In this document: one piece after another, positions 12,820 through 31,443 of the stretch | How the letters are laid out: each line of letters starts with the position of its first letter | Position numbering within the stretch: position 1 is the first letter of the stretch | NCBI GenBank assembly: GCA_963809485.1 | Contig: CAWEJX010000020.1 | Coordinates: 352,001-416,000, forward strand | Origin: an uncultured Acidobacteriota bacterium | GTDB taxonomy: Bacteria; Acidobacteriota; UBA6911 | Direction of reading: 5' to 3' | DNA: 64,000 nucleotides | The notes under the pieces: generated by a model | Told to the model about the DNA's origin: nothing | The model's database searches: none | What the model saw: only the letters and a program-made list of their open reading frames with translations | Program-made: the position numbers and the translations under genes

Positions 12820-12995
12820 TCCCGTTACCATCCCGGCCAATGGGATTACACCATTATGAAATGCACGGCTGTTCTCCGGTGCCCGCCATTCTGAACCCAA
12901 ATTGCCTGCTTGATGCAGGCAACCGCCCAATTACGGCGCCGTGCAAATACAAAACACGCCAGTCCATGAGGTTCGCCCCAGGGAAATTAGTTCGG

Positions 12996-13020
12996 TCACC
13001 GTCAATGACAGCTATTCACA
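12996..13020. promoter_or_regulatory. 10-bp-periodic TCACA-like triple direct repeat (site A)
   Basis: TCACC-gtcaa-TGACA-gctat-TCACA, about 177 nt upstream of the 12819 start. Confidence 0.45.
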
Positions 13021-13820
13021 GGCAGATTCGTGGGATTCATCATGGGATCCAAACCCTGTGCCGCCTCATCCGGTAAAGGCGCCGGCCCGTCTTCGGCGGC
13101 CGATTCGAAGGACACCTCTTCCAGTTCCTTCCTGTAGACTGCAAGAAACGCTACGGCGGCGACCAGGAGAAGCAACAGAACTATAAGGTTAAAATACCAG
13201 CCCGCATCCCAGGCAAAATAGGCCAGCGGGATGCCGACCGTTAACGATACTGAAAGGGTGATCCAATCCGACCAGGCGGAACCGAGACGAATCCATTTCA
13301 GAAAAAAATTAAGGATCTGTCCCCCGTCGAGAGGCCATATGGGAAGCAGATTGAAAGACCCCATTATCAGGTTGATCACGGCGATCAGTTCGAGCAATTT
13401 GCGGAGGATGCGGATGTCCGAAAAATGGGCGAGGCCCAGGGCAATGGCGCAACAGATGAAGTTCGAGGCCGGGCCGGCTGAGAGGATGGCCATTTTTTTC
13501 GGGTGCGTCAGAGCCCTTGCCGCCGGATCCGTCGCCAGCGCCAGCCCGCCAAAGATATGCAGGTAAATCCCCTGCGTCCTTATCCCCCAGATCCCTGCCA
13601 CCAGCGCATGAGCCAGTTCGTGCATCAGCACGGCTGCAGGGATGGCGGCGATTACGAAAAGTTCCAGCAGCCTTTGCAGGAAAGTCACTGCAAAGGTCCT
13701 GCCGCTCGGCTCCAGCCATAAGACAACGATCAGGATTAATGGACCCAGCGGAGCCGACCAGTGGGCCCGGATCGGAATCCCCCGGATGCGACCCAGAGAG
13801 AAAGATGCAAGAAAAAACAT
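13002..13820 (-). CDS. Site-2 protease (M50 family) membrane zinc metalloprotease
   Basis: HELAH, AGPASN and FNLLPIWPLDGG; several TM segments; typical N-terminal GRIRGIPIRAHWS. Confidence 0.92.
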   Translation of the reverse strand: MFFLASFSLGRIRGIPIRAHWSAPLGPLILIVVLWLEPSGRTFAVTFLQRLLELFVIAAIPAAVLMHELAHALVAGIWGIRTQGIYLHIFGGLALATDPAARALTHPKKMAILSAGPASNFICCAIALGLAHFSDIRILRKLLELIAVINLIMGSFNLLPIWPLDGGQILNFFLKWIRLGSAWSDWITLSVSLTVGIPLAYFAWDAGWYFNLIVLLLLLVAAVAFLAVYRKELEEVSFESAAEDGPAPLPDEAAQGLDPMMNPTNLPVNSCH

Positions 13821-13999
13821 GTGAGTGAACCTCGTTCCGCTGAAGCCGACATAATCGGAGAGGTCAGGCGCTTCTCCGGGATACGTCGCAGAACCTAACA
13901 CAGGAAGGAGGCCCTTCCCGGCAAAACAACGCAATCACACTGTCGTGTTGCCGCAAGCCGCTGCAGCAATCTCATTTGCATCGATGCAGAAAAAATTGA

Positions 14000-15483: not shown

Positions 15484-16591
15484 ATGTCCAAAACACCAAC
15501 CGACCGTGAGAAAATTCGCCGGCAGGTTGCGGAAGATCCGGAAACATTTACAAACGACGAGCTTATTGCTGCGGTCTGCAAGTATTTCTGCCGCGGCATG
15601 CCCGTAGCCGAAATCAGGAAAAATATTAACGGAGAAGCTGGGCATCTCGCTCAGCCGCGAGCAGCCCCACCGGCTCCTTTCTTTGGCCGCCCAGAGGAAT
15701 CTGCTCAGCTTTAAAGCGCCGCTCGCAACCGAGCTTGAAAGCCAGATCGCCAGAGAATACAGCTGGCTGAAGCACGTGAAGGTGGTGCGCACAGCGGTAT
15801 CAGATGATGTTTCCTACCGGGTTGCCGAAGCGCTTCTCGATCATGTTTGCGCCTTGAGCAAAACCCGGTCCGCAGATAAGGCGGTACATATCGGTTTCGC
15901 GGGAGGGAAAGCACTCAGAAAGACTGCTAGGATTTTTTCAGAGATGCTGCGCGAGCCCAGAATGGACCTTCCGCAAACAATTATATTTCACGCCATTGTC
16001 GCCGGTTTTCAGGTCACGGACCCATCCACCGATCCGAACGGATTTTTTAACTATTTTGCGGGAGAAACGGATCTGCAGGTGCAGGCATCGTTTATTGGCC
16101 TGCCGGCGCCGATGATTCTCAAATCCGGGGAGATCGAGAAATTGCGCACCATCTCCTACCTGAGCGAGGCTTTCGATTCCGTTAGGGACATCGACATCAT
16201 CGTCACCTCGGCGGGAGGGCATTGGCAACAGGGACATAGCAGCTACTACAGCATGTTGAGCAAGGCATCCCCGCAGACAGTCGAACAACTCACAAAGGCC
16301 GGTTGCATTGGAGACTTGATGTGGCGCCCGCTGGGAAAAGCAGGTCCCCTCAAGGTCGACACAGATATGCGCACCGTAACGCTGATAGAGCCCAGCGCTT
16401 TGCCGGAATTCATCAAGCGGGGCAAGTCGGTGATACTGCTGGTGGGGCCATGCGGCACCTGCGGCCGTCCGAAGGGCGATGTGCTTGGGGCGATCCTTGC
16501 CAAACGCAATCTAATTACCCATCTGGTGGTCGACAGCCGTTCGGCAAGAGCCTTGCTGGCCGGGAAGGAAAAGAAACCGGCCACAGATTGA
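15484..16591 (+). CDS. SorC/LsrR/CggR-type sugar-binding transcriptional regulator (frameshift at about 15620)
   Basis: GGAGG RBS. Removing one A from the A5 run at 15619-15623 joins the 15484 ORF to an HTH (LGISLSREQPHRLLSLA) and the sugar-binding domain (IGFAGG, LPAP, IDIIVTSAG, GCIGD, K...LGA, ITHLVVD). Confidence 0.75.
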
Positions 16592-16653: not shown

Positions 16654-18330
16654 TCAGAACGGGACATCATCGGGTGGGATAGTTGCCGGGTCCACCGCCT
16701 GGAAAAGATCCGATTCCAGTATCCTGTGGACCCGGCTGAGGCGCCGCAACTCCAGCAACCCGGGATCCCGTCTCCATCCCGCCTCCTCTTTCGTAAAATC
16801 GCGCCATTTCTCCTCGGCGGCAAAAGGATCGGAAAGGTCCAGGACACGCTTGCTGCGACCGTCCCAGATCCCCCGCCAATCACAATGTATGCGTCCGCCC
16901 TGACCGGCATTCCGGCGCACAAATTCGCCCCGCAGCCTTGCGCGCCCAAAAGAGGGAGGATGGGCCATGGCAGACCGTATTTCCCGGCTGGTAATGCGGC
17001 GATGGGATAAAACCCCCGCTCTGTCCAAGGCCGCAAAAATGCCTTTACTGCCCAGTTGGGAAAAACGCATGTCGATCTCGAACAGTTCCCCCCTGAGATC
17101 CACAAAGCGGGCAAAATCGCCCCAGTTCAACCCCATGTCGGCAAGATACGGCGAGATGATCTTCACCTCGTTCTTTACCGGGCTGTCGGGGCCCAACACC
17201 AGTTCAGCCGTGACAGGCATTGCATGGAATTCAGTGGCGGTCAACGCTCCCCTGAGCCAGTTCATGACGCGGTTCCAGTGCGGCAGCGATTCCCAGGCCA
17301 TGCCGCGGCGCCGGGCCTGGTCCCTGAACATGGAATGCTTGACTGCCCAGTCCAGGGTTGTATCGAGAGCTCCGGGATCTCGTTCCAGTTGATCCAGGAT
17401 GCGGCGCCATTCGGCGCACACGCTCTCCGCCCAATCCGGCATGAAGCTGCCGCCCAGGCTGGTTTCCGCCTGGCGAAGGTAGTGGCGCTGGATTTCGACG
17501 GCAGTGGCAGACTTGCCGTTGTTAAGCGCTGCAGCGGCGGTGCACTCAGGATCCGCCGAAAAAGCCCGCATGGCGCTCAACGGAAATTTCAGCTGAACTC
17601 CTTCCGTCGGACAGGCATCCGCTTCAATCATGGCGACGACCAGCGAGGTGGCGCCGATTTTTAAAAGACTTGACACCTGCGAGCACAGGCTCTCGCCGCA
17701 CAAAATGTGCAGTCGGCTGCAACCCTCGCGGGCCAGTGTCTCATTCTTGGAATGAAAGATGCCCCGGCCGCGCGTGGATTCGTCCGACATAATCCTCTCC
17801 AGATGAGCCACTCGCGGTGAAAGGCTGAAGGCGAGTCCTTCGGAAAGCGGATTGAAGCCGCCCGCTCCCGTGTAGACGACTCTCGAAACCAGGTGCGGGA
17901 TTATCCCGGCGGAGATCGCCGAGGGATTCATCCACGTCAAATACGATTCATGGCAGCCCCAGCTCGACTCGGTCCCGCCGTAATCGACATTCGTGCGGAA
18001 AAGCTGAATTTCGCTGATCTCCGGGAAACGGTTTTCCAGGGCATCAATGATTTTGCGGAGAATGGCCTCTCCCGCTGCTACGTGGATTACGGCCTCCAGG
18101 GGGTTCGCACATTCAGGAGTGGCAAACTCCGGGTGCAGGCCGGAATCCACATAGAAGCGGGACCCGTTTTGCAGGAACATACCATTGCCGAAATCCCGGA
18201 TATGAGGCATCTGTTCCCGGGCAACCCGAAGGAGGGTCTGGACCAGGATATGCCGGTTGAGGCTCTTCCCCTTCCGGGATACGGCCGAGATCGCGTACTC
18301 GGTCTCGACGCCCATCAAACGCTCGCGCAC
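16654..18330 (-). CDS. pafA: Pup--protein ligase PafA-like, directly downstream of pup
   Basis: RLMGVETEYA, FLQNGSRFYVDSGLHPEFATPEC, GCHESYL, RLHILCGES, LDW and DLSDPF; GTG start 2 nt after the pup stop. Confidence 0.88.
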   Translation of the reverse strand: MRERLMGVETEYAISAVSRKGKSLNRHILVQTLLRVAREQMPHIRDFGNGMFLQNGSRFYVDSGLHPEFATPECANPLEAVIHVAAGEAILRKIIDALENRFPEISEIQLFRTNVDYGGTESSWGCHESYLTWMNPSAISAGIIPHLVSRVVYTGAGGFNPLSEGLAFSLSPRVAHLERIMSDESTRGRGIFHSKNETLAREGCSRLHILCGESLCSQVSSLLKIGATSLVVAMIEADACPTEGVQLKFPLSAMRAFSADPECTAAAALNNGKSATAVEIQRHYLRQAETSLGGSFMPDWAESVCAEWRRILDQLERDPGALDTTLDWAVKHSMFRDQARRRGMAWESLPHWNRVMNWLRGALTATEFHAMPVTAELVLGPDSPVKNEVKIISPYLADMGLNWGDFARFVDLRGELFEIDMRFSQLGSKGIFAALDRAGVLSHRRITSREIRSAMAHPPSFGRARLRGEFVRRNAGQGGRIHCDWRGIWDGRSKRVLDLSDPFAAEEKWRDFTKEEAGWRRDPGLLELRRLSRVHRILESDLFQAVDPATIPPDDVPF

Positions 18331-18332
18331 GC

Positions 18333-18533
18333 TTACTGCCCGCCCTCCTGCCTGTTTGCAGACAGAAAAGCCTCGGAATCTCCCGACAAAGCACGCCGGA
18401 TAGCCTCATCCGCGGCCGCCAGCAGGTCCGAACCCGCCTGCCTCTGATCCGAAAGGCTTTGATTCGAAGACGCCGTCCCCGGCGATTCGTGTTCGCTTCT
18501 ACGCCCTTCCCTGTTCCTCTCACGCGGTTCCAT
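18333..18533 (-). CDS. pup: Prokaryotic ubiquitin-like protein Pup-like, 66 aa
   Basis: Charged, disordered N-half; helical C-half DLLAAADEAIRRALSGDSEAFLSANRQEGGQ parallels the Pup pattern (DLL...F....Q.GGQ); AGGAG RBS; lies between dop and pafA. Confidence 0.85.
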   Translation of the reverse strand: MEPRERNREGRRSEHESPGTASSNQSLSDQRQAGSDLLAAADEAIRRALSGDSEAFLSANRQEGGQ

Positions 18534-18639
18534 AATCCTCTCCTGAATTGAAATTGTTTTAATTGAGTGCGGCTCCCCGGAGCCGTCCGATGAATGTTAA
18601 AAAATCCTTGTCCGGCGCATACCCGAATGCTCGCCCCGT

Positions 18640-20278
18640 TCACATGATTTGCCCGGAAGGCAGCGAGCAGTCCTCGTCCCTGCGTTCGCCCGCCGAATCG
18701 TCAGCCGGATTCGAAGCCAGGCATTCCAGGATATCTTCCAGTGCGGATTCCTCGCGGAACACGTGGCCCACCGCCTCCTTGGTAAAGCCGGTGGGATCCG
18801 ACATATCCAGCTCCGCGTAGCGCGACCAGTTCCCCTTCCGGCGCGTCTTAATTCGAATGGAATCCCAATCCAGCGAATCCAGGGATTCCGGCAAAACGCG
18901 CCGGAGGATCATGGCTCTAGTCCAGGCCCGTGTGTCTTCGGGGGGATTGTGAACAAACCAGTCGATCCGCGATTCATCCACGATCCTCTCCATAAAGCCG
19001 TTTTGCGCATAGGCCCAGAACAGTCCCTCGGATGGATCCAGGCTGGAATAAATATGATCCAGGTGCTTGATCTGAGGCGATCTCCAGTTAAGACGGGGCT
19101 GGCTCTCCAGGACTCTCTTGAGAATCGTCATCTTCAGCACCCAATCCAGCCGCCGGGCCAGCGCGGGAAAATCCCGGGCGCGGAGCTTATCCAGCGTATC
19201 CGCCCATAGCGTCAAAATCTCTCCCGCTCTTGGGACCCACCGGGAACAGTCCGTGGAATCCATGAAGCGCTTGGCTTCGTCCAGAAACAGGAACTGGAGC
19301 TCCACCGCCGTCAGGCGCTGCCCGGACGCCATTTGTGCCTTTGCGCGAAGGGAGGGATCGTGGCTCCATGAGACAACGGCTTCCAAGGGATCGTCCAGAA
19401 GAAGGTTCGGGTTCATCCGGCCGTGCTCGAGCATGCACAGGATGATCTGAGTCACTCCCACCCGGAGAAGGTTTGCCGTCATAAGCGTGGTGTTGTCGAA
19501 AAATATGACATGAAGCCGTGCCATCCGTTCCGCAACGGTCTCCGCCGGAGTCCCGTTTGCGGGCGGATCCGCATAAAGCCTGATCCCGTCCGTTTACCAA
19601 AGGGCGATTGAAGGTTGTCTGAACGCCCGTGAGCTGCTCAAAAAAATCGGCCCGCTGAGATATCTGAAAGTCGGAATGCGGCATTCCATTCTCGCTGCCT
19701 GCTTTCCCAAGGCCGGTGAAGATGATGCTCGAAACCTGGTAGGCAGCCAGATACAGCATGTAGTGGAGCTTGCGGTTGAAGATATTCTCCCACGTCTCCC
19801 TCGTTATCAGGAAATTCAGGTGGCTTCCATAGGAGTGGCCGAGCCCGTCACTGTTGTTGACCAGAGCCTGGATCCTGACGTTGCGGCCGAGCCTGGCGTT
19901 TGCGGACAGAAGCGCGCCCTGCGCGATTCGCAGCATTGCATTCCAGCAGGCGACGTGATCGAAGGCGCTGATGACCTCGGGAGTGCAGAGCTCCAGATGG
20001 TTCAGATCGATATAAGCGCAACCCCCGTTGCCCTGCAGATATTTCCGTCCCCAGTCCTGGGACAGATGGCCGGATCCGCTCTGTTCCTCCGAACTGCGGC
20101 AGTGAGAGCTCCAGCACCCATCCTCGTCCGTTCTCCCGAAGGTTGAAGGGGAAATCCCCTGGATTTCCCTCAGAAGCATGCGCGATGCGATGTCACAGGT
20201 GCCGCCCCATTTGTCAACGCCAAGGACAAAATTTCCCAATTCAATATCCGTTCCGCAAAGCTTGGGTAAGGGATCCAT
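18640..20278 (-). CDS. dop: Pup deamidase/depupylase Dop-like (frameshift between about 19525 and 19580)
   Basis: The 5' frame gives GTDIELG, NGGCAYIDLNHLE, NNSDGLGHSYGSHLNFL, FQISQRADFF and TTFNRPLVNGRD. The 3' frame continues RLHVIFFD, LDWVLK, PPEDTRAW and DWDSI. The two halves lie in different frames. Confidence 0.82.
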
Positions 20279-20355
20279 CTTTTTCACCTCTTTCTGCCCA
20301 TCAGGCATACGGCTGTGTTCTTTGCCTCCCTGTATCCACGATTGATCCACAAAGA

Positions 20356-22047
20356 TCAGGCGGCGTTTATATATCGGTGGGACCGGGGGACCTTTTTCCT
20401 GACCGGTTCGACGCGGACCGCGTCAATATCCTGCGGCAGATCCTGCAGGTGGTTTCGGCAGTTTGCCGGCGTGAGCGTTTTGGCCATGGCCTCAAATTCG
20501 TCCGCAATCGCATGAAGGATGTCTTCCAGTCGCAATCCCGGAGACCCCGCCTCTATGTCGCGCAGGCACGCCCGCTCGAGCGCCACGCGGGAAATGTTTG
20601 CAATGCTGGCGCCATTCATCAGGTCGCCGGCTTTGACTTTGCGCTGTTTCCCGTCACGGAAAGTTATCTGGGCAAGCTCGCTGTCGCCGTTGGGCGCATA
20701 GATCCGCGAGACCGCCGAGTCGATAATGAACTGTCTCGCTTCCCCCGCGCCGCAACCGTTCTCGGCGTATGGAACATCCTCGGGAAGATGTTTCGCGAAT
20801 ATCTCGGAGGCAGCTTTCATATTGGGTCTGGGAACCTCGATGATGACATCGCCCAGGCGGCCGGGACGCAACAGGCCGGGATCGAGAACGTCCCGGCGAT
20901 TGGTGCTGGCGATCACCAGGATGTTGCCCCGGGATTCCAGCCCGTCCAGTTCGGCCATGAATGCAGTCAGCACCTTGTCGTCAACCCGCGTCAGGGAGTT
21001 CCCGCGCGCGGTCCCGATCGAATCAATTTCATCGTAGAAGGCCACCACGGGAGTTTCGGGTTCCGCGTCGCCCGCCTCGCGCAGGGCCCGGAAATTTTCG
21101 CGCAGGATTCTCTCGGACTCGCCCCACCACATGCTGCAGAACTCCAGGGGCTTGAAGTGCGCGAAGCGCGATCTGCCGGACTTCGACAGTCCCGCCATCC
21201 AGTTTGCCATGGCGCGCGCAAGCATGGTTTTGCCCGTGCCGGGAGGCCCGGTGAGCAGCACCGAACGCGCGCGCGGGAGCCTGTATTTGCCCGCGGTCTC
21301 GGCATTGAAGAACTGGATACGGATGGGCCGCTGCATCTGCTCGATCTGCCGGTCCAGGCCCCCAATGTGTTCAAAGGTCTCATCCGGAGTACGTTCCAGG
21401 AAAAGCGCGTCGGCCGTCATGCGGTCGATCTTTTCCAGAGCCATGCAGGCGCTCCGCTCCCATCGGATCTGATCTCCGCTTTTCAGACCCTGGTCCTTCA
21501 GCGCACCTCCGACATCCACAACAATTTCCTCGTCGCGCTCTTTCAGCACGATCCGGCCATCCGGCGTGTGGCGATCGTAGATTGCGGTGTGACCGCAGCG
21601 AAGCATGCCGAAAGGCGAACGGTCCACGATGAAATTCATTTCGTTGGAGAGCAGGACCTCGTCGCCGGGCTGCAGAGAGTGCACATCCAGCTCGTCCGAG
21701 CAGGCGACAATCCTTCTTGAATTGCCACACATCACCATTGCCGACATGCCGTGCCCGGCCTCTTTGACTTCCAGGAATATCGCTGGGTAAAAAGGCGGGC
21801 TGGTCAGGCGCCGGTGTATGGCTTTCAATTCATTTTGCGCGGTCACGGCGTCCTGAAGGTTGGACCGGAGCATGCAGATCCTGTCGACCAGTTGGCGGTC
21901 AAGATGGCGCGACGTGTCGACGGAGCGGCCGCGAATCAGTTCAAGCATCTGGACCTTTTGATCCGTCGTCGGGCTGCCTTCGCCAAAAGCAGTCAGCTGA
22001 TCGAACAGACCGGCGAATTCGGATGTTTCTCTCGGGGGTCTTGGCAT
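20356..22047 (-). CDS. arc: ARC/Mpa-type proteasome-associated AAA+ ATPase
   Basis: N-terminal coiled coil and OB region (LTSPP, LQPGDEVLL), FEHIGGLDRQIEQ, Walker A GPPGTGKT, Walker B FYDEID, LRPGRL, GASIANI; lies directly upstream of dop. Confidence 0.9.
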   Translation of the reverse strand: MPRPPRETSEFAGLFDQLTAFGEGSPTTDQKVQMLELIRGRSVDTSRHLDRQLVDRICMLRSNLQDAVTAQNELKAIHRRLTSPPFYPAIFLEVKEAGHGMSAMVMCGNSRRIVACSDELDVHSLQPGDEVLLSNEMNFIVDRSPFGMLRCGHTAIYDRHTPDGRIVLKERDEEIVVDVGGALKDQGLKSGDQIRWERSACMALEKIDRMTADALFLERTPDETFEHIGGLDRQIEQMQRPIRIQFFNAETAGKYRLPRARSVLLTGPPGTGKTMLARAMANWMAGLSKSGRSRFAHFKPLEFCSMWWGESERILRENFRALREAGDAEPETPVVAFYDEIDSIGTARGNSLTRVDDKVLTAFMAELDGLESRGNILVIASTNRRDVLDPGLLRPGRLGDVIIEVPRPNMKAASEIFAKHLPEDVPYAENGCGAGEARQFIIDSAVSRIYAPNGDSELAQITFRDGKQRKVKAGDLMNGASIANISRVALERACLRDIEAGSPGLRLEDILHAIADEFEAMAKTLTPANCRNHLQDLPQDIDAVRVEPVRKKVPRSHRYINAA

Positions 22048-22050
22048 TTG

Positions 22051-23211
22051 TCATTCCTCCTGTGGATGCAAATTCATGGTGCCGGCAGTCAGGCTGCCCG
22101 GCCGTACCGAAACCGTGTCACCGGATCCTTTCAGATCATCGCAACAGATAGCGTCTGCCGCTCCCGGAAATTCATTGAGTCCCTGAGGCGCAGAATCCAG
22201 GACGTAAAAACCTCGCGCTTCGAGCATCCCCTTGTTCCAGCCAAAAACAGCTATTCTTGGATCGCCGTAGGCGACATCGCTCACAACCATGGCAATACAC
22301 CATGCCCGCGAAAAAACAGCCCGATGCAGGGCCTGGTCCTGTTCACTGAGAAAGCCTCGCGTCAACTGGCACACTTTTTGCTTCTCGGGCGGGCATTCCC
22401 TGCAGTTCCAGTGCTTTACGGGATGACTGTGCCACCACCCCAGAAGCATTTCTTCCCTGCGGCGCAACCGCAGGGCGCTCCGGACGGCTGTCCAGGATTC
22501 GGATGTGAACCTGAGCTTCGACTGTTCCCCGACCGTGCCCGTAGCCGGCACCTGAGCCGTGACCTCCGCGAAAACATCCGCCGAGGCCGAGTCGTGGTGC
22601 AGATGCCCGATTAAAAAGCCCCCCGTTTCGATCTCTTGAGCCTGTTGTGTGATCAGGGAAACTTCAGTCAGGACGCGGCCGGGAATAAAAATGGGGAGGA
22701 GTTCGGTATCGGCGCAGTCCCGGGCGGCTGCGAAGCGCATAAATTGAGTGAAAACGCTTTCCCGAACGGGAATATCCGGATCAATATCCCGGATCTCCAA
22801 ACCGCCGCCGCTTCCCTCCCCTGTCCTGGCTTCTTCAGGATAGGCCGTAACAAGGTAAAAGAAGCGATCGTTCAGACGCATCTTCCCGGCCTCCACGAGG
22901 AGGGCTGCGGCCCGGGTGGCCAGTCCCTTAAAATATGTCGCCGCAAAATCGCAGAAGAAACCCTCCGTCTCATCCGGATCCAGCTGAATCCTAAATCCCT
23001 GCAGATAGGGCCGGGACAACCTGAGGTGCCATAAAGGCATTACCGAGGCAGGCCTATCGTAGTCGCCGAAGTTGAGACGCCTGCTCCGGACGCTGGACAG
23101 GCGGGTCCATTCGAGGGCGGGAGCAAAATCCACATCCACTGCGGCCTGACCGAGCGGCGAGCCCGTTTCGGAGTGGATTTCAATAATGTATCGATGCAGG
23201 TCTTCGGGCAT
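22051..23211 (-). CDS. JAB/MPN+ (JAMM) metallopeptidase with N-terminal extension
   Basis: ETGGFLIG ... LLGWWHSHP ... FLSEQD is an intact JAMM motif with a CxxC-x7-C insertion. The start could be 23211 or 23241. Confidence 0.88.
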   Translation of the reverse strand: MPEDLHRYIIEIHSETGSPLGQAAVDVDFAPALEWTRLSSVRSRRLNFGDYDRPASVMPLWHLRLSRPYLQGFRIQLDPDETEGFFCDFAATYFKGLATRAAALLVEAGKMRLNDRFFYLVTAYPEEARTGEGSGGGLEIRDIDPDIPVRESVFTQFMRFAAARDCADTELLPIFIPGRVLTEVSLITQQAQEIETGGFLIGHLHHDSASADVFAEVTAQVPATGTVGEQSKLRFTSESWTAVRSALRLRRREEMLLGWWHSHPVKHWNCRECPPEKQKVCQLTRGFLSEQDQALHRAVFSRAWCIAMVVSDVAYGDPRIAVFGWNKGMLEARGFYVLDSAPQGLNEFPGAADAICCDDLKGSGDTVSVRPGSLTAGTMNLHPQEE

Positions 23212-23332
23212 GGGACGCACCTTTCCCGGTTCTTCGATCAAGGTGAAAGATGAAGCGAACCTTTTTCAGATCTTCGAGCCTCAGGATCCGATGACCGACG
23301 CCGAGGCCCGAAGATTTGACGCTGCAAATGAT

Positions 23333-23617
23333 TTAGCCCGCATCGATGTTCGGCTGCAGCACCACGCGGTCGCCGGTTTTCACGGCATCCCCAACCTTTT
23401 CCCAACTCTGGAGGTGACGCCCCTCCCGCTCGAGTACAGCCTGATAGGCAACGGGCCGCCCCTCAGAATCGTTCTGCGGCAAGTTCATTGCCGCCAGAAG
23501 CGAGTCCGTCAGTTCCCTCACGGTGATCTCGACCCCTATATTGCTTACTCGACGCATCTTCTGCTGTGAAACATCCATAGCATCGATCGTCAAACCCACT
23601 GCTCCTGCACTTCCCAT
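23333..23617 (-). CDS. Ubiquitin-like (beta-grasp, YukD/EsaB-like) protein ending in -AG
   Basis: 94 aa with a beta-grasp pattern (ITVREL...MNLP...YQAVLEREGRHL...VGDAVKTGDRVVLQP) and a C-terminal Gly; AAGGAG RBS; lies among E1, E2 and JAB genes. Confidence 0.8.
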   Translation of the reverse strand: MGSAGAVGLTIDAMDVSQQKMRRVSNIGVEITVRELTDSLLAAMNLPQNDSEGRPVAYQAVLEREGRHLQSWEKVGDAVKTGDRVVLQPNIDAG

Positions 23618-23653
23618 GGCTATCTCCTTTTTTGATTGTTTATGGATTCACTT

Positions 23654-24547
23654 CTATGGAACACATGCATGGCCGTTTGCCATCCGATAAATTTCCGCAA
23701 CCTGTTTGTTCTCAAAACACTGCGCTTCCCGGCCGAAAAGGTTCGCGGAAACCGACAATGCCGCTAAAGCGTGGTCAAGCTCAGAGGGGCTCGGCGCCGC
23801 AAACCGGACTTCAAACCGGACGACAGCGGTTGACTCCGTCTCCACAACCGAGGCACGGACCATCCGGACGGCTCCGCATACCGCCAGCAGGAAGCTTCCC
23901 AGGGCCGCACGCTGCGCATCGGACAGGGATTCGAACCGGGCTGCCTCCAGGCGCGAAACGACCTCGCCGTCCTGGTTCTCCATCAGCGCCTGGGCGAAGC
24001 TGCCCTGGACTTCCAGATCCACCGCGAATCTCGACGGCGACCGCTCAACAAAAGGCCAGCTCATCCCCTTGAGCTGTTCTGCAAGATTCAGGGCATCCTC
24101 GGACCCCGGATGCGTTTTCCCGGGCATCCGCACCCCCGCCGGGTCTGCGGATTGCGGGAAACCTCGAAGCCCTTCCCAGGCTGCCCCGAGGCCTTCCAGT
24201 GTTTCGGCAATTCGCCGCGGAAGCTTGGCATAACTGTCCTCGGGGTCCAGGGGCAAGTCTGCGCGAAGCTGCCGGGCACCGGGACCGGGGCTCTGTACAA
24301 ACTTGCAGAGGCCTGCCAGGTCCGCGTTGCGGCTTAAAAGGCTCCACTCATCTGCAGGGAGGATTGTGTCAGCCAGGGGCAGGCCCAGTACGAGCCAATC
24401 ATCCTCGACAGCGGCAAAGGCCCCGGCCCGTCCCCTGCTTTTAATGTTAAGGTCCCATCGGCCGCAGCCCGACTGCCTGGCGCCGGATGCCGATTGAGCC
24501 AACCATCCTGAAATCATTTTGTCTCGTTCAACAATCGGGATTGTCAT
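23654..24547 (-). CDS. Hypothetical protein, possibly two tandem YbjN/CesT-like chaperone-fold domains
   Basis: Two ~130-aa alpha/beta units (e.g. DDWLVLGLPL...LLSRNADL...LRADLPL); 4-nt overlap with the E2 stop. The fold assignment is inference. Confidence 0.55.
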   Translation of the reverse strand: MTIPIVERDKMISGWLAQSASGARQSGCGRWDLNIKSRGRAGAFAAVEDDWLVLGLPLADTILPADEWSLLSRNADLAGLCKFVQSPGPGARQLRADLPLDPEDSYAKLPRRIAETLEGLGAAWEGLRGFPQSADPAGVRMPGKTHPGSEDALNLAEQLKGMSWPFVERSPSRFAVDLEVQGSFAQALMENQDGEVVSRLEAARFESLSDAQRAALGSFLLAVCGAVRMVRASVVETESTAVVRFEVRFAAPSPSELDHALAALSVSANLFGREAQCFENKQVAEIYRMANGHACVP

Positions 24548-25059
24548 GTCTCATCCACCTTATCGATGACCTCGAATTCCAGATCGAGGGCCCTTCGCTT
24601 CAAAGGGCGGTTGTCTATGGGAAACCGGTGCCGGTTTTCTCTGGCCCAGGCGCTGGCCTGCAGGTTTAGCGAATCGTGCATGGCAACGGTCTGATAGGCC
24701 ACGATCCTGAATACGCGGAAGATGATATCGACCAGCGGAGTGGCGGGAACGAGACGCCCGATGCATATCAACGGAGCCATGATATTGGGGTGATAGACAT
24801 TGGACGGTTGAAGCCATGTCACCACCTCAAACGGATTTGCCCGCCGCAGATAGTCGCTGGGGAACCATATGCCGACCCTGAACAAGTCAGCCGTCGTCAC
24901 CCCTTCCCCGGCCTTGTAGATGAGCCCCTTGCAGTGCAGGTCCACAGCGAAAGCCTGAGGAGCAACGGGATGGATTTCCATAAGACCGCTTGCCCGCGCC
25001 AGGGCTTTCCCCTCTTCAGCCTGGCGCATCAGGAATGCCGCATATATTTTGTCGTTCAT
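24544..25059 (-). CDS. E2 (UBC-fold) ubiquitin-conjugating enzyme-like protein
   Basis: FPSDY, YHPNI-x5-C(IG) catalytic signature and SLNLQAS (cf. PLNxEAA of E2s). Confidence 0.82.
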   Translation of the reverse strand: MNDKIYAAFLMRQAEEGKALARASGLMEIHPVAPQAFAVDLHCKGLIYKAGEGVTTADLFRVGIWFPSDYLRRANPFEVVTWLQPSNVYHPNIMAPLICIGRLVPATPLVDIIFRVFRIVAYQTVAMHDSLNLQASAWARENRHRFPIDNRPLKRRALDLEFEVIDKVDET

Positions 25060-25149
25060 CTTCTACTCCGCCCCAAAAGAGTCGACGCCCCGTAGTGGAT
25101 CATATTTCTGCGTCGTTCCGGCGTCTCTGCCGTCGATAACATCCCGCGC

Positions 25150-26289
25150 TCATCTCAAATCCATCTCCCCACAAGATTTATTTTTCACAATATTTTTTGG
25201 ATCACCGGCGGTCACTGTAATTTCAAAGTGGCGCTCGCATTCAGGGCTGCCGATGGTGAACACTTCGCCGTTGCGCAGGCCGAGACTCGCAAGAGACTGG
25301 GAGAGAACCCGCCTGGGCAAATGAGTCATGAGTTTCTCCGTCAGGTCCCAGCCGCTGGCCAGCATGGTTCCCCCGCAAATCGGGCACTGCTTTGCTTTCC
25401 GGGTCAGGGATTCCCGAAGCCTCAAACCATGTTTTGCGTGGCCGCAGTTCGTGCAGGTCCGTCTTTTCACAAAAGACTTCCCTTCAACTCGCAGCCAGGA
25501 TTCGTCGCGCTGCTGCCCCGAACCGATCCGTCCCAGGGCATCCTGCAGCGTAATTTCTTCCGGCCCGCACTCCAGCTTTTCGATCTCCCAGATCCCGTGA
25601 TCGAACCGGCAGCGGGGATTGCGGCGATAGGATGTTTGATAGCATTTGTGGTGCATGCCGTCGATCAGGACCTGACGCCCGAAGGGGACAAGGTCCCAAT
25701 GACCATCGATGCAATTTTGCGCGGCGATTATCTGCAGGCCGGCCGCGAGCGCGCCCAGTCCCGAAGGGGCATTGGTAGGCTTTGGCGATCCCCCTCCCGC
25801 ATCACAGGGGTAGACGGTCTCCAGCGCGAGGTAGTCCGGATCCGACCAGGCGCATTCGTAGCACGGACGGTCTTCACCCGGGAGATAGGCATTGATCCGC
25901 GCAAGCCGTCCCTCCGGATCGACCCCGGCGTCGATCCACGGGACTTTGCCCAGGCGCCAGACAGCCTGCCCCAGCCGCATTCTTGCCAGTTTGGTATCCA
26001 GCCCGCTCATCATCAGGTCGCACCACAGAAATCCAAGGGGAAGGTTCTCGACAAGGTCTACGACCGCCTTAACAGTCAGGTCCGGCCTGATGCGGCGGAG
26101 CCTCTCTGCCTGGACACGGCTTTTCGGCTTGCCGATGTCCGCGGCATTGATATCCTGGCTCGCAAGGTTCTTCCTCTCATAGGACTGCCCGTCTACCAGG
26201 GTTACCTTATGGATTCCGGGAAGCCTGGCAAGATGAGGGATCAGGTGAGACCCGATGTTGCCGCATCCCACAACCATCACATGAGACAT
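25150..26289 (-). CDS. E1-like (ThiF/MoeB family) activating enzyme with C-terminal Zn-ribbon and possible ubiquitin-fold domain
   Basis: VVGCGNIG, NLASQ, GKPK, PCYEC, candidate catalytic Cys in YPC, RNPRC, then CTNC...CPIC and SLASLGL...GEVF. The start at MSHVMV is 1 nt from the upstream stop. Confidence 0.9.
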   Translation of the reverse strand: MSHVMVVGCGNIGSHLIPHLARLPGIHKVTLVDGQSYERKNLASQDINAADIGKPKSRVQAERLRRIRPDLTVKAVVDLVENLPLGFLWCDLMMSGLDTKLARMRLGQAVWRLGKVPWIDAGVDPEGRLARINAYLPGEDRPCYECAWSDPDYLALETVYPCDAGGGSPKPTNAPSGLGALAAGLQIIAAQNCIDGHWDLVPFGRQVLIDGMHHKCYQTSYRRNPRCRFDHGIWEIEKLECGPEEITLQDALGRIGSGQQRDESWLRVEGKSFVKRRTCTNCGHAKHGLRLRESLTRKAKQCPICGGTMLASGWDLTEKLMTHLPRRVLSQSLASLGLRNGEVFTIGSPECERHFEITVTAGDPKNIVKNKSCGEMDLR

Positions 26290-26290
26290 C

Positions 26291-26818
26291 TCATATCTCC
26301 TCGGGCGCCCAGCGGTAGCCCGCATCCATGTCTGTGACCTGCGGACACAACGCGCAAGTTTCCGCATAGGTCCAGCATGGGAAATCCTCCGACTGGTGAT
26401 ACCCCACGCCGCAGGCGGGGCACTTCACCGACGGATGTCCGGGGTTCATCGCCTGTTTGCATCGTGGACAGTATGAATCCGTGGAGGACCCCGCGAAGGA
26501 TTCCAGGACCGCCAGGCTCTCGGTTGAGTAGTAAAAAAGCCCGGCGCCGGCGACCCGTATCTCATCGCGATCGCGCAGCGACCTGATCCCGGGGGTCAGT
26601 CGGATGCCGTTGATCCGGACGTCGGCCTGGGCGCCTGCAATAAGAATCCACGACTCGCCGGATGGGCCGCCGGGGCGTACCAGCATGATTTCCTTTTCCC
26701 AGGCGGGACTCAGCCCGGACGGATGCGACAGCGCCTTCCGTCGCTGCAGGCTGAAGAGTGCGCAGTTCAGCGGAAGGACCGCCCACTGAGAATCTTCGCG
26801 AACCCAGATATGAGCCAT
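26291..26818 (-). CDS. FHA-like plus RING-type (C4HC3) zinc-finger protein, candidate E3
   Basis: VRINGIRL...LRDRDEIRV (FHA-like strands), then CPRC-x11-CPAC-x4-H-x6-CW-x5-CALC; GGAGG RBS; first gene of the operon. Confidence 0.72.
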   Translation of the reverse strand: MAHIWVREDSQWAVLPLNCALFSLQRRKALSHPSGLSPAWEKEIMLVRPGGPSGESWILIAGAQADVRINGIRLTPGIRSLRDRDEIRVAGAGLFYYSTESLAVLESFAGSSTDSYCPRCKQAMNPGHPSVKCPACGVGYHQSEDFPCWTYAETCALCPQVTDMDAGYRWAPEEI

Positions 26819-28014: not shown

Positions 28015-28923
28015 ATGTCCCAACTGTTCATTGGCTATGCCGAAAAGGATCGCCCATTTGTTCTTCACCTGGTCCATGACCTGGAATATCTCAGTAAAGA
28101 CCTGACGATCGACTTCGTCATGATAAAGAGGGAGGACTCGATCATCGAGAAGGTCAAAGAGAGAATGGACGACGCAGACTTCGTAGCGGCCGTAGTCTCA
28201 AGCAATTCCGTTCGCCTGCCTCTTTTCGGCCGCGACCTTGCTACCATGACGAACCAGGAGATATTCGGAAGACCGGTGAGGATCCTGCCGATCCTGCTGG
28301 GCAAGTGCCAAGTTCCGCAATATCTCTCGGACAAGTATCATGCGGATTTTCGGGCTTGCGATTTCTACCTCCAAAGCCTTGCGGGACTGGCGCAGCAATT
28401 GAACATCGATTTCGAACCGTCACGGCCTCCATGGATTCCCGGCGATTCAGAGTATTTCTCAAAATTGCATGATGCCAACAGGGCACGGGGCGAGTTATAC
28501 AACCGGCTCGGCATGAAAATCATGGATTGGGCGGGCAACTATTACAGTAAGCCCCACTACGAGCTTTTTCCTGAAGACTGGCGCAGAGCAGATGACGGAG
28601 CCACCTACGCATGCGACACCGGCAACTATAAATTGTATCAGGACTCAATGAACAACTTGGACAGGATAGAAGCTCGATATTCGGATTTTATGCATCTTTT
28701 TACGCCACGCGGCGTTTTGCAGCGCGAAGCGGTCCGGCTCTTTAGCGAAGCTGCCGGTCTTGGAGACCTCGAGGCCGTATGGAACCTCGGATGGAGATAC
28801 GAGCTGGGCGAGGGAGTCGGGAAAAATCACGATCGTGCAGTGCTGCTGTGGCAGAGGGCTGCGCATTGCAGCCACCGGGCATCAGCCGCCAAGCTAAGAG
28901 AGCTCGGATTGCCCGTGGAATGA
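28015..28923 (+). CDS. TIR domain plus Sel1-like repeat protein
   Basis: N-terminal LFIGYAEKD...ADFVAAVVSSNS...ILPILL...ADF (TIR_2-like); C-terminal AAGLGDLEAVWNLGWRYELGEGVGKNHDRAVLLWQRAA (Sel1). Confidence 0.78.
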   Translation: MSQLFIGYAEKDRPFVLHLVHDLEYLSKDLTIDFVMIKREDSIIEKVKERMDDADFVAAVVSSNSVRLPLFGRDLATMTNQEIFGRPVRILPILLGKCQVPQYLSDKYHADFRACDFYLQSLAGLAQQLNIDFEPSRPPWIPGDSEYFSKLHDANRARGELYNRLGMKIMDWAGNYYSKPHYELFPEDWRRADDGATYACDTGNYKLYQDSMNNLDRIEARYSDFMHLFTPRGVLQREAVRLFSEAAGLGDLEAVWNLGWRYELGEGVGKNHDRAVLLWQRAAHCSHRASAAKLRELGLPVE

Positions 28924-31244: not shown

Positions 31245-31443
31245 AGTCAGGCACCTCCGGCAAAGCCGGAGGCAATATTTGAACCGCTCTGAGCCGTTGG
31301 AGGAGTTATGCCGATCTTGAACGCTGACATACGCGAGCAAAAGCCGATGAGGCGCTTCCGATCCCCGCCGGACAAATCGGCGTTTGTCAGCGTTTTTTGT
31401 CAGCGTATCTCAGCGTTTCAAAATACGGAGCTGTCAAACTCTG
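31245..31443. mobile_element. Non-autonomous IS200/IS605-like palindromic element, copy 2 (one end truncated)
   Basis: agtcaggcacctccggcaaagccggaggc...cagcgtttcaaaatacggagctgtcaaact, as in copies 1 and 3. It supplies the stop codon of 31434-33059. Confidence 0.7.

What the first reader, a model, noticed from the sequence alone, without database searches (positions are those of the whole stretch)
16654..26818. One operon joins a ubiquitin-like E1-E2-RING-Ubl-JAB cascade to a Pup system (ARC-Dop-Pup-PafA)
Seen: ten co-oriented genes with gaps from a 4-nt overlap to about 120 nt: FHA/RING, E1 (GCGNIG, PCYEC), E2 (HPNI..C), CesT-like, Ubl (-AG), JAB (HSH..S..D), ARC ATPase, Dop, Pup (-GGQ) and PafA. 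JAB and arc are 3 nt apart, and pup and pafA 2 nt apart. Established: pupylation (carboxylate-amine ligase PafA, Dop, Mpa/ARC) and bacterial Ubl conjugation (E1/E2/JAB, as in Bil or CBASS Cap2/Cap3) are chemically unrelated tagging systems, normally encoded separately. Inference: here they work as one pathway. Options include a two-tag relay (Ubl marks a target, then Pup delivers it to the unfoldase), pupylation of the Ubl machinery, or a stress/anti-phage response. I do not recall a characterised system with this architecture.
Basis: partly seen in the sequence, partly recalled or inferred. Interest (0 to 1): 0.95.

Follow-up and report, generated by a model that had tools for sequence, protein, structure and literature searches.

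The report
Ubiquitin-like and Pup tagging operon
A soil/wetland Acidobacteriota genome carries one conserved ten-gene operon that joins a ubiquitin-like E1-E2-RING-JAB cascade to a Pup tagging system around a shared unfolding ATPase, without a proteasome; the combination has been mentioned once in print but never studied.

Summary
On the minus strand, 26818 to 16654, ten co-oriented genes encode a RING E3, E1, E2, a tandem YbjN/type-III-chaperone-like protein, a beta-grasp Ubl ending in AG, a JAB peptidase, an ARC-type AAA ATPase, Dop, Pup (ending GGQ) and a PafA2-family ligase. Caveats: Dop here is split by one extra base at 19544 that three close relatives lack, and the 'FHA' label is only a lead.

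The linkage is not chance or misassembly. I found 19 orthologous loci (Acidobacteriota, one Bryobacterales MAG, one Opitutaceae MAG, metagenomes). All 14 that reach beyond JAB have ARC next, and all 12 that reach further have Dop, Pup and a PafA-like gene. A version only 24-30% identical keeps the same order. Within the genus, both halves occur together in 4 genomes and in none of the others.

No host has a 20S proteasome. The best reading is one pathway in which two reversible lysine tags converge on the ARC unfoldase. The mechanism is inferred.

Kaur et al. (eLife 2020) noted a Ubl system coupled to Pup conjugation in one sentence, so the linkage is not unseen, but it is uncharacterised. The marker protein family has 1551 representatives at 50% identity.

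The parts
26291..26818 (-). RING-type E3 (175 aa). The C-terminal half is a C4HC3 binuclear finger. The N-terminal ~110 aa is a possibly FHA-like domain.
   Evidence: Prok-RING_1 scores 26.4 bits, below the 29.1 cut-off, and matches 9 of 10 orthologues. Invariant ligands are C117, C120, C133, C136, H141, C148, C155 and C158. FHA is only an Atlas lead at 0.87; Pfam finds FHA in 0 of 10.
25150..26289 (-). E1 adenylating enzyme: ThiF domain, 4-Cys ribbon and a C-terminal domain. The ORF is open to 26367. Orthologues start at M27, which leaves a 1-nt gap after the RING stop codon.
   Evidence: ThiF scores 82.9 bits. GNIGS, D33, K56, D98, R103, PC143xxC146, YPC162, and C279xxC282...C302xxC305 are invariant in 11 sequences.
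24544..25059 (-). E2 (171 aa) with an HPN motif and catalytic Cys99.
   Evidence: H90, P91, N92 and C99 are invariant. A PDB profile search gives 12 of 14 hits to UBC E2s, best E 0.024. The L062 orthologue passes UQ_con.
23654..24547 (-). 297-aa tandem YbjN / type-III-secretion-chaperone-like protein. Its start overlaps the E2 stop codon by 4 nt.
   Evidence: No Pfam, NCBIfam or PADLOC hit. AF2 pLDDT is 81.6 and pTM 0.82. Foldseek matches YbjN, AmyR, SicP, ExsC, CesT and SpcU, each over one half. The family has 1551 representatives.
23333..23617 (-). Ubiquitin-like beta-grasp protein (94 aa) that ends in ...NIDAG.
   Evidence: AF2 pLDDT is 82 with b-b-a-b-b-h-b topology. Foldseek gives SUMO, ubiquitin, NEDD8 and Caldiarchaeum ubiquitin at TM 0.6-0.74. 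The terminal AG is invariant. 6 of 18 orthologues stop there and 12 of 18 carry 2 or more further variable residues.
22051..23241 (-). JAB/JAMM metallopeptidase (396 aa) with a conserved ~180-aa N-terminal domain of unknown family.
   Evidence: Prok-JAB scores 22.5 bits here and matches 9 of 9 orthologues, best E 1e-8. E205, H271, H273, S299 and D302 are invariant, as are C283 and C291. For the N-domain there is an Atlas lead to fvmJAB_N at 0.76 only.
20356..22047 (-). ARC/Mpa-type AAA+ ATPase (563 aa). It starts 3 nt after the JAB stop codon.
   Evidence: TIGR03689 scores 303.6 bits (cut-off 504.75). AAA scores 95 bits. Prot_ATP_ID_OB_N and _C are both found. The C-terminal tail ..RY[IL]N[AV]A is conserved.
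18640..20350 (-). Dop-type depupylase/deamidase. In this assembly it is split into two frames by one extra base at 19544.
   Evidence: Pup_ligase scores 114 and 178 bits on the two pieces, and TIGR03688 is the best NCBIfam hit for both. The extra base is absent from L014 and L022 and from a contig of run X2. Dop is intact in L014, L015, L016 and L022.
18333..18533 (-). Pup (66 aa) that ends in ...QEGGQ. It has no lysine.
   Evidence: The C-terminus ANRQxGGQ (or GGE in the Opitutaceae-type loci) is conserved. It is the only ORF in the window with such an end. 9 of 11 orthologues have no Lys.
16654..18330 (-). Pup-ligase homologue (558 aa) of the 'PafA2 family'. It starts 2 nt after the pup stop codon.
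   Evidence: Pup_ligase scores 305 bits. TIGR03686 scores 243.9 and TIGR03688 235.0, both below their cut-offs. NCBI names homologues 'proteasome accessory factor PafA2 family protein'.

Best explanation
The ten genes form one co-inherited operon. I read it as a proteasome-independent, two-tag pathway built around the ARC unfoldase.

Shown:
- There is a complete Ubl conjugation set: E1, E2, a RING E3, and a beta-grasp Ubl with a conserved C-terminal Ala-Gly that many orthologues make as a precursor with a short tail.
- There is a complete Pup set: Pup-GGQ, a Dop-type deamidase/depupylase and a PafA2-family ligase.
- The two sets flank one ARC-type AAA+ ATPase.
- The two tag-removing enzymes (JAB and Dop) are the ATPase's immediate neighbours.

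Inferred:
- The RING E3, helped by the tandem chaperone-like protein that is translationally coupled to the E2, selects targets for Ubl attachment.
- JAB matures the Ubl and recycles it.
- Pup is deamidated by Dop and ligated by PafA. It supplies the disordered handle that the ARC coiled coil needs to start unfolding.
- JAB and Dop strip the tags at the ATPase, much as Rpn11 does on the eukaryotic proteasome base.
- Because no 20S proteasome exists in these hosts, the outcome is either unfolding and disassembly, or hand-over to another protease.

In this particular genome the Pup arm may be disabled by the Dop frameshift, if that base is real.
For: Gene identities.

Conserved order:
- Of 19 orthologous loci besides the window, 14 of 14 that reach beyond JAB have ARC next.
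- 12 of 12 that reach further have Dop, Pup and a PafA-like gene.
- The loci come from Acidobacteriota MAGs, a Bryobacterales MAG and an Opitutaceae MAG (record titles), and from metagenome contigs.
- A version with only 24-30% identity (L062) keeps the same ten genes in the same order. Its Ubl ends in AAG and its Pup ends in GAQ.

Phyletic pattern in the genus:
- E2 is found in G000, G001, G006 and G023 only, of 25 genomes searched.
- Pup-ligase-family genes are found in the same four, of 30 genomes searched.
- None of the 25 genomes searched with both queries is discordant.

Other support:
- Trees of the two halves share all clades with support of 0.95 or more that involve close kin.
- Junctions are tight: JAB to arc is 3 nt here. 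Across the 10 loci it ranges from an overlap to about 114 nt, with start codons chosen by my script.
- The ARC-type ATPase is also coupled to E1-E2-Ubl-JAB in loci that lack any Pup ligase (L063, L064). This fits ARC being the hub.
- No 20S proteasome: G000 has one PF00227 hit, which is HslV next to HslU. Five other hosts have one hit each. G429 has none.
Against: - No experiment or transcript data exist. No RNA run held the stretch, and the promoter/terminator scans were no better than shuffles.
- Co-inheritance shows functional linkage. It does not show shared substrates.
- The ligase, Dop and ARC all score far below the NCBIfam equivalog cut-offs, so their activities may differ from the actinobacterial enzymes.
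- Dop is frameshifted in this genome, and PafA is reduced to its last 88 codons in G006. The Pup arm is therefore dispensable or decaying in at least some carriers.
- One deep branch differs between the half-trees: L051+L054 at 0.97 in the Ubl half against L054+L028 at 0.81 in the Pup half.
- The FHA assignment is unconfirmed, and so is any role for the 297-aa protein.
Confidence: 0.6

Rival explanations
1. The operon is an anti-phage or conflict system. Infection triggers Ubl and/or Pup tagging of phage or host proteins, and ARC unfolds them, in the manner of Bil or CBASS Cap2/Cap3. This concerns the biological role and does not exclude the mechanism given as best.
For: - Distribution is sporadic and looks like horizontal transfer: strong E2 orthologues in 6 of 401 Acidobacteriota genomes, the 297-aa marker in 1 of 401 Verrucomicrobiota genomes, and 4 of 30 genomes in the genus.
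- PADLOC gives weak matches of the E1 to CBASS E1-E2 models (up to 40.9 bits), of JAB to Cap3-type models (31.7 bits), and of ARC to TRIP13/IetA models.
- Kaur et al. treat the related Ubl systems as conflict systems.
- A TIR_2+Sel1 gene lies 1.2 kb upstream on the other strand.
Against: - No effector (nuclease, pore or NADase) lies inside the conserved ten genes.
- The TIR gene and the other flanks are not conserved among loci.
- The window's neighbours include housekeeping genes (ftsW, ftsA, a P-type ATPase).
- No member passes as a known defence family in PADLOC.
Confidence: 0.25
2. These are two independent tagging systems that merely travel and are regulated together as a 'protein-tagging island'. 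Each has its own substrates, and ARC serves Pup only.
For: - The chemistries are unrelated and each half is complete on its own.
- E1-E2-Ubl-JAB sets without any Pup genes exist in the same phylum (L055-L060).
- PafA2-family ligases occur outside the operon in the same window (11209-12930 and 31434-33059).
Against: - The gene order is invariant, with ARC between JAB and Dop, in 14 of 14 loci and in a version 24-30% identical.
- No genome was found with this E2/297-aa clade but without the Pup half, and the reverse was not found within the genus either.
- ARC-like ATPases follow JAB even where Pup is absent (L063, L064).
Confidence: 0.2
3. In this genome the cluster is a decaying relic. The Dop frameshift is real, Pup-GGQ cannot be deamidated, and the Pup arm is dead.
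For: - There is one extra base at 19544 relative to L014, L022 and a contig of run X2.
- G006 has lost most of PafA.
- Pup ends in Gln, which by established knowledge of actinobacterial Pup needs Dop before ligation.
Against: - A single-base insertion in a MAG may be an assembly error.
- No run held more than 0.23 of the sampled words, so the source reads could not be inspected.
- All other nine genes are intact, and they are 81-100% identical to those of L014 and L022.
Confidence: 0.3

Closest known systems
[quoted passage not shown]
   Same: It joins an E1/E2/RING/JAB Ubl system with Pup conjugation in one neighbourhood, and is read by those authors as linking Ubl conjugation to target degradation.
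   Different: That paper reports it for Thermofonsia and Planctomycetes only. I could not test whether it is the same clade. The related FtsH-ternary systems in that paper have a Ubl-E2 fusion and an EAD1 domain, whereas here Ubl and E2 are separate genes.
Actinobacterial Pup system (Pup, Dop, PafA, Mpa/ARC, 20S), in particular the proteasome-less form of corynebacteria (recalled, not from a call)
   Same: It has Pup with a GG[QE] end, a Dop-type and a PafA-type Pup_ligase-family enzyme, an ARC ATPase with OB domains, and pup adjacent to a ligase gene (as Iyer et al. 2008 describe).
   Different: There is no 20S proteasome in any host checked. All three enzymes fall well below the NCBIfam equivalog cut-offs. 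The ligase belongs to the 'PafA2 family', with three paralogues in the window. The system is embedded in a Ubl operon.
Caldiarchaeum subterraneum-type E1/E2/RING/Ub/Rpn11 operon and bacterial Prok-RING_1 operons (Burroughs et al. 2011; that paper was not held, so this is recalled, supported by the Pfam Prok-RING_1 match)
   Same: It has separate E1, E2, small RING E3, beta-grasp Ubl and JAB genes. The predicted Ubl matches Caldiarchaeum ubiquitin at TM 0.71-0.74.
   Different: The Ubl ends in Ala-Gly rather than Gly-Gly. There is an extra tandem YbjN-like protein. The RING has an N-terminal globular domain rather than TM helices. The operon is fused with ARC-Dop-Pup-PafA.
Bil and type II CBASS (Cap2/Cap3) bacterial conjugation systems
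   Same: E1, E2 and JAB chemistry. There are weak PADLOC and NCBIfam matches to Cap2/Cap3-type models.
   Different: There is no E1-E2 fusion, no CD-NTase and no known effector. A RING E3, an AAA+ unfoldase and Pup are present.
Eukaryotic 26S proteasome base and lid (Rpt ring with Rpn11)
   Same: A JAMM deubiquitinase gene is directly coupled to a proteasomal-type AAA+ ATPase with OB domains. This is a working analogy only.
   Different: There is no 20S core. A physical JAB-ARC contact was not tested. A second tag, Pup, is present.

Membership tests
Pupylation system | Small Pup protein with a C-terminal GG[QE] | tested here: met
   The 66-aa ORF ends in QEGGQ. ANRQxGG[QE] is conserved in orthologues. 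There is no Pfam Pup hit.
Pupylation system | PafA ligase (NCBIfam TIGR03686 equivalog) | tested here: inconclusive
   Pup_ligase Pfam scores 305 bits. TIGR03686 scores 243.9 against a cut-off of 551.3, nearly tied with Dop's model at 235.0. NCBI names homologues 'PafA2 family'.
Pupylation system | Dop deamidase/depupylase, intact | tested here: not met
   TIGR03688 is the best model for both pieces but scores below its cut-off. The gene is split by one extra base at 19544 in this genome. It is intact in L014, L015, L016 and L022.
Pupylation system | Mpa/ARC ATPase | tested here: inconclusive
   TIGR03689 scores 303.6 against a cut-off of 504.75. AAA and both proteasomal OB domains are present.
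Pupylation system | 20S proteasome alpha and beta subunits | tested here: not met
   G000 (95.67% complete) has one PF00227 hit, which is HslV beside HslU. G001, G006, G023, G117 and G242 have one hit each. G429 has none.
Prokaryotic E1/E2/RING/JAB Ubl-conjugation operon | E1 with ThiF adenylation domain | tested here: met
   ThiF scores 82.9 bits, and the nucleotide-binding and Cys motifs are invariant.
Prokaryotic E1/E2/RING/JAB Ubl-conjugation operon | UBC-fold E2 with HPN and catalytic Cys | tested here: met
   The motif is invariant. 12 of 14 weak PDB hits are E2s. UQ_con passes its cut-off in the L062 orthologue only. No structure was predicted for the E2.
Prokaryotic E1/E2/RING/JAB Ubl-conjugation operon | RING finger (Prok-RING_1) | tested here: inconclusive
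   The score is 26.4 bits against a cut-off of 29.1. 9 of 10 orthologues match at E<=0.1. Eight ligands are invariant.
Prokaryotic E1/E2/RING/JAB Ubl-conjugation operon | Beta-grasp Ubl with a conjugatable C-terminal Gly | tested here: met
   AF2 and Foldseek. AG is invariant, followed by variable tails in 12 of 18 orthologues.
Prokaryotic E1/E2/RING/JAB Ubl-conjugation operon | JAMM motif E...HxH...S..D | tested here: met
   E205, H271, H273, S299 and D302 are invariant in 9 sequences.
FtsH-vWA-MoxR ternary system Ubl module (Kaur et al. 2020) | Ubl fused to E2 and to EAD1; vWA, MoxR and FtsH genes in the operon | tested here: not met
   Ubl and E2 are separate genes. None of the ten products, nor the flanking ORFs scanned, hits vWA, MoxR or FtsH. 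The fvmJAB_N lead is only 0.76, and Pfam finds it in 0 of 9 JAB orthologues.
CBASS type II / Bil defence systems | Cap2 E1-E2 fusion with CD-NTase, or the BilABCD set; a match to PADLOC models | tested here: not met
   There are only partial weak matches to the E1 portion (<=40.9 bits) and to JAB (<=31.7 bits). E2, Ubl, the 297-aa protein and PafA have no PADLOC hit.

The most novel reading that the evidence does not exclude
The two tags are joined into a hybrid degron. After the E1-E2-RING cascade attaches the folded Ubl to a target, PafA ligates the lysine-free, disordered Pup onto the Ubl's single invariant lysine (K20). This gives the ARC ring the unstructured handle that a beta-grasp tag lacks. 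JAB and Dop then dismantle the hybrid tag at the ATPase. It would be a bacterial solution, without a 20S proteasome, to the initiation-region problem of ubiquitin-dependent unfolding.

Clues:
- Pup has no Lys in 9 of 11 orthologues.
- K20 is invariant in 11 of 11 Pup-linked Ubls, and is the only Lys in three of them.
- At that position, of 7 alignable Ubls from Pup-less E1-E2-JAB loci, 4 have E, 2 have Q and 1 has K. These represent about three independent lineages.
Probability: 0.15. Interest if true: 0.92.

Novelty: new variant of a known kind. Interest (0 to 1): 0.72.

Why it matters
Ubiquitin-like conjugation and pupylation are textbook examples of convergent, chemically unrelated tagging systems that have been studied in separate organisms. 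Here both sit in one strictly conserved operon around one unfoldase, in hosts with no proteasome.

That makes three questions directly testable:
- How a bacterial Ubl conjugate is read out.
- What ARC and Pup do without a 20S core.
- Whether a JAMM peptidase-AAA+ pairing like Rpn11-Rpt exists in bacteria.

The marker protein family has 1551 representatives at 50% identity, so this is a widespread environmental system and not a curiosity of one MAG. It has no entry in Pfam for four of its parts and none in PADLOC.

Tried and rejected
Interpretations I rejected:
- I first placed the Dop frameshift in a TTT run near 19575. The DNA alignment showed it is an extra base at 19544.
- Chimeric assembly is rejected. 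Independent assemblies from at least 14 other records show JAB next to ARC.
- 20S partner: the single proteasome-family hit is HslV.
- No second Pup gene exists in the window.

Tests that gave nothing usable:
- Complex prediction of the E2 with the 297-aa protein returned no verdict (score 0.00, controls not run). This is no evidence either way.
- PDB sequence searches with the 297-aa profile gave 0 hits. With the Ubl profile they gave no meaningful hits.
- Promoter and terminator scans gave 0 promoter-like and 15 terminator-like sites, against 4.7 and 13.9 expected. This is uninformative.
- Rfam found nothing in the window.
- Sequencing runs: no RNA holder was listed, and the best DNA holder had 0.23 of the sampled words. 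The laid contigs are short pieces of relatives. None listed bridges the JAB-arc junction.
- Pairwise-identity correlations between the halves (Spearman 0.44-0.66) were no lower than within halves (0.46-0.53). With 11 related loci this is weak.

Searches for taxonomy and names that failed:
- The word-indexed search with the 297-aa profile found only 13 proteins and no names.
- The listing of cluster members gave no taxon names.

Literature:
- I ran nine full-text searches. They found no paper that characterises a joint Ubl-Pup operon, only the one sentence in PMC7159879.
- Burroughs et al. 2011 (PMC5938088) is not held. It and the eLife supplements, which were closed and which I did not request, may list such operons.

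Full report
WHAT IS THERE

The window is G000:C20:352001-416000 of a 6.0-Mb assembly in 21 contigs, 95.67% complete and 7.32% contaminated. Record titles of near-identical loci name uncultured Acidobacteriota MAGs.

On the minus strand between 26818 and 16654 lie ten co-oriented ORFs. The cluster is bounded upstream by a 496-nt gap after a glyoxalase-family gene. Downstream it is bounded by a convergent gene for a sugar-binding-domain protein.

Profile searches give these assignments:
- ThiF for the E1 (82.9 bits).
- Prok-RING_1 for the first gene (26.4 bits, just under the cut-off).
- Prok-JAB/JAB for the sixth gene (22.5 and 20.6 bits, under the cut-offs).
- The proteasome-ATPase model TIGR03689 plus AAA and both proteasomal OB domains for the seventh gene.
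- Pup_ligase for the eighth gene (in two pieces) and for the tenth gene (305 bits).

The window's own E2, 297-aa protein, Ubl and Pup hit nothing in Pfam or NCBIfam. I tested those four by comparison with orthologues and by fold prediction.

THE FOUR UNASSIGNED PROTEINS

E2:
- H90-P91-N92 and C99 are invariant in six orthologues down to 42% identity.
- A profile of them finds 14 PDB sequences at E<=10, and 12 of these are ubiquitin-conjugating enzymes (best E 0.024).
- The orthologue in the distant locus L062 passes Pfam UQ_con (28 bits against a cut-off of 27).

Ubl:
- AlphaFold2 on 11 sequences gives pLDDT 82 and the beta-beta-alpha-beta-beta-helix-beta order of a beta-grasp.
- Foldseek against the PDB returns 90 matches at E<=0.001. 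SUMO, ubiquitin, NEDD8, ISG15 and Caldiarchaeum subterraneum ubiquitin lead the list (TM 0.6-0.74).
- The C-terminus ...P-x-I-x-A-G is invariant.
- In 6 of 18 orthologues the protein stops right after the Gly. In 12 of 18 it continues for two or more unconserved residues. This is the pattern of a precursor trimmed to expose the conjugated glycine.

297-aa protein:
- The AF2 model has pLDDT 81.6 and pTM 0.82.
- Each of its two halves matches YbjN/AmyR and type III secretion chaperones such as SicP, ExsC, CesT, SpcU and SycE.

Pup:
- The 66-aa ORF ends in QEGGQ.
- The motif ANRQxGGQ is conserved, and becomes GGE in the Opitutaceae-type loci.
- It is the only ORF in the window with such an end.

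OTHER DETAILS OF THE GENE PRODUCTS

- RING protein: eight ligands are invariant in a C4HC3 pattern. Its N-terminal 110 residues look FHA-like to a language-model search (0.87, a lead only). Pfam finds FHA in none of 10 orthologues.
- JAB protein: the full JAMM set (E205, H271, H273, S299, D302) is present, together with two invariant cysteines in an insert and a conserved 180-residue N-domain of unknown family. The Atlas lead to fvmJAB_N scores 0.76 and is not backed by Pfam.
- E1: the nucleotide-binding motif, PCxxC, an invariant YPC, and a C-terminal four-cysteine ribbon followed by a further domain are all present. Orthologues show that it starts at M27.
- Ligase: NCBI names homologues 'proteasome accessory factor PafA2 family protein'. 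It scores about equally on the PafA and Dop equivalog models, and far below both cut-offs.

- Dop is in two frames: 19187-20350 and 18640-19524.
- Alignment with L014 (96% identical DNA) and L022 shows one extra base at 19544 in the window.
- A contig of run X2 also lacks that base (table 4).
- Dop is in one frame in L014, L015, L016 and L022.
- No public run held more than 0.23 of the stretch's sampled words. I therefore cannot say whether the base is an assembly error or a real lesion.

IS THE LINKAGE REAL?

I searched with the E2 in several collections:
- 41 relatives.
- One genome per species of GTDB.
- JGI metagenomes.
- 401 Acidobacteriota genomes.

I then fetched flanks and mapped all ten proteins by tblastn.

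Besides the window there are 19 orthologous loci:
- Five of them (L023, L024, L026, L029, L052) end before or within JAB.
- All 14 others have ARC directly after JAB.
- All 12 of those that reach further have Dop, Pup and a PafA-like gene, always in the order RING, E1, E2, 297-aa, Ubl, JAB, ARC, Dop, Pup, PafA. L025 and L027 end inside ARC.

Three qualifications apply:
- In G006 (L014) only the last 88 codons of PafA remain.
- L019 is riddled with frameshifts.
- L030 duplicates L021.

Identities to the window range from about 95% down to about 36%. The carriers include several Acidobacteriota families, a Bryobacterales MAG and an Opitutaceae (Verrucomicrobiota) MAG.

A much more distant locus, L062 in G231, keeps the same ten genes in the same order at 24-30% identity:
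- Its E2 profile score is only 38 bits.
- Its Ubl ends in AAG and its Pup-like ORF ends in GAQ.
- It is followed by a ClpA/B-type ATPase.

PHYLETIC PATTERN

- In the genus, the E2 is present in G000, G001, G006 and G023 of 25 genomes searched.
- A Dop query that also detects PafA paralogues hits the same four genomes of 30 searched.
- No genome searched with both queries is discordant.
- In the phylum sample, strong orthologues occur in 6 of 401 genomes.
- In a Verrucomicrobiota sample, the 297-aa marker occurs in 1 of 401 genomes, the known carrier.

The cluster is therefore a sporadic accessory unit that is gained and lost whole. Trees of the concatenated Ubl half (E1+E2+JAB) and Pup half (ARC+Dop C-part) agree on every strongly supported clade of close kin. 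They differ in one deep, short branch.

RELATIVES THAT HELP TO READ THE OPERON

- Seven genomes of one Acidobacteriota family carry E1, E2, Ubl and JAB only (L055-L060 fetched). Their Ubls also end in AG.
- Two genomes of another family (L063, L064) carry E1, E2, Ubl, JAB and then an ARC-like ATPase with proteasomal OB domains. They have no Pup-ligase gene within 20 kb. Downstream sit a small protein, a 279-aa protein and a second Prok-JAB protein.
- So an ARC-type ATPase is coupled to the Ubl/JAB set in its own right. The module on its far side can differ.

NO PROTEASOME

- G000 has a single PF00227 match, and it is HslV beside HslU.
- G001, G006, G023, G117 and G242 each have a single match of about 90 bits.
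- G429 has none.
- The ARC C-terminus is conserved (..RY[IL]N[AV]A). From recall, this is not a penultimate-tyrosine HbYX tail.

HOW IT MOST LIKELY WORKS

What is shown: there are two complete, reversible lysine-tagging toolkits on either side of one unfoldase gene. The two tag-removing enzymes (JAB and Dop) are the unfoldase's immediate neighbours, and the whole is inherited as a unit.

What I infer, using the established roles of the families:
- E1 adenylates the Ubl glycine.
- E2 and the RING E3 transfer the Ubl to target lysines.
- JAB trims precursors and removes conjugates.
- Dop deamidates Pup-Gln and removes Pup.
- PafA ligates Pup-Glu to lysines.
- The ARC coiled coil captures Pup and threads the substrate.

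On this reading both tags converge on ARC. The 297-aa chaperone-like protein acts with the E2, perhaps holding an extended substrate or tag. Its start overlaps the E2 stop codon in all 10 loci that hold both genes, although the start codons were chosen by my script. With no 20S core, the end point would be disassembly and remodelling, or hand-over to another protease. A ClpA/B-like ATPase follows PafA in 3 of 11 loci. PafA carries C-terminal TPR repeats in the Opitutaceae-type loci.

One bolder reading is not excluded:
- Pup has no lysine in 9 of 11 orthologues.
- The Ubl has one invariant lysine, K20, which is its only lysine in three orthologues.
- At that position, 7 alignable Ubls from Pup-less loci have E (four), Q (two) or K (one).
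- If the tags are joined, the direction must therefore be Pup onto the Ubl.
- These counts come from about three independent lineages and are only a hint.

COMPARISON WITH WHAT IS KNOWN

- Iyer, Burroughs and Aravind (2008, PMC2588565; passages read) described Pup outside Actinobacteria, including proteasome-less neighbourhoods. The passages that one search returned for my search terms, which included JAB and E1-like, mention no Ubl genes.
- Kaur et al. [quoted passage not shown] They take this to support a link to degradation.
- Nine full-text searches found nothing further.
- PADLOC gives only weak generic matches.

The linkage has therefore been seen before, in other phyla. Its anatomy, conservation, lack of a proteasome and extent have not been described in anything I could read, and no experiment exists.

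EXTENT AND VERDICT

A profile of the 297-aa protein finds 1551 representatives at E<=0.001 among 1.84 billion clusters at 50% identity, of which 1256 are at 1e-10 and 620 at 1e-30. I could not fetch their contexts.

Two of them share their longest-contig length with PafA2-family hits: 45658 for P0012 and P0241, and 84964 for P0040 and P0203. This is a weak sign of co-location.

The finding is real, conserved and uncharacterised. Its novelty is reduced by the earlier one-line mention, and the mechanism is inference.

Noticed in passing
window 11209-12930 (-) and 31434-33059 (-), with 9089-11071 (-) and 29261-31153 (-): There are two further PafA2-family Pup-ligase paralogues (Pup_ligase 300.6 and 296.7 bits). 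Each is followed by a 630-660-aa soluble protein with no Pfam hit, and these two proteins are 30% identical to each other. The window has only one Pup gene, so three ligases may share one Pup. In L016 the operon's own ligase is of the 11209-type and is followed by a homologue of the 660-aa protein.
   Followed up: partly
window 19544: One extra base splits Dop into two frames. It is absent from L014, from L022 and from a contig of run X2. It could not be checked against source reads.
   Followed up: yes
L014 2816-3082 (G006): In this 92%-identical relative the operon's PafA is reduced to its last 88 codons directly after pup, while the other nine genes are intact.
   Followed up: no
L063 3638-11798 and L064 1947-11837 (G349, G421): A related operon has E1, E2, Ubl (ending HLG), JAB and an ARC-like ATPase with OB domains. 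It has no Pup ligase. Downstream are a small protein, a 279-aa protein and a second Prok-JAB protein. In L064 a DDE transposase sits between JAB and the ATPase.
   Followed up: partly
L062 1780-14000 (G231): A very distant version (24-30% identity) of the same ten-gene operon is followed by a ClpA/B-type double AAA ATPase. ClpA/B-like genes also follow PafA in L019 and L054.
   Followed up: partly
window 28015-28923 (+): A TIR_2 domain protein with a Sel1 repeat lies 1.2 kb upstream of the operon on the other strand. It is not conserved next to the operon in other loci.
   Followed up: partly
window 15683-16591 (+): A gene for a protein with a Sugar-bind (SorC-type) domain is convergent with the operon's end. 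Homologues lie next to the operon in the same-genus loci L015 and L016, and on the other side in L016. Iyer et al. 2008 noted a DeoR-family regulator beside actinobacterial Pup loci.
   Followed up: no
window 33229-37475 (-) and 13002-13934 (-): A 1050-aa PPDK_N/PEP-utilizers protein and a 365-aa protein with one predicted TM segment lie upstream of the 31434-type ligase. An M50 peptidase lies upstream of the 11209-type ligase.
   Followed up: no
L021 9646-12132 and L031 16495-18975: In the Opitutaceae-type loci the operon's PafA is about 826 aa long and carries C-terminal TPR repeats, and Pup ends in GGE instead of GGQ.
   Followed up: no
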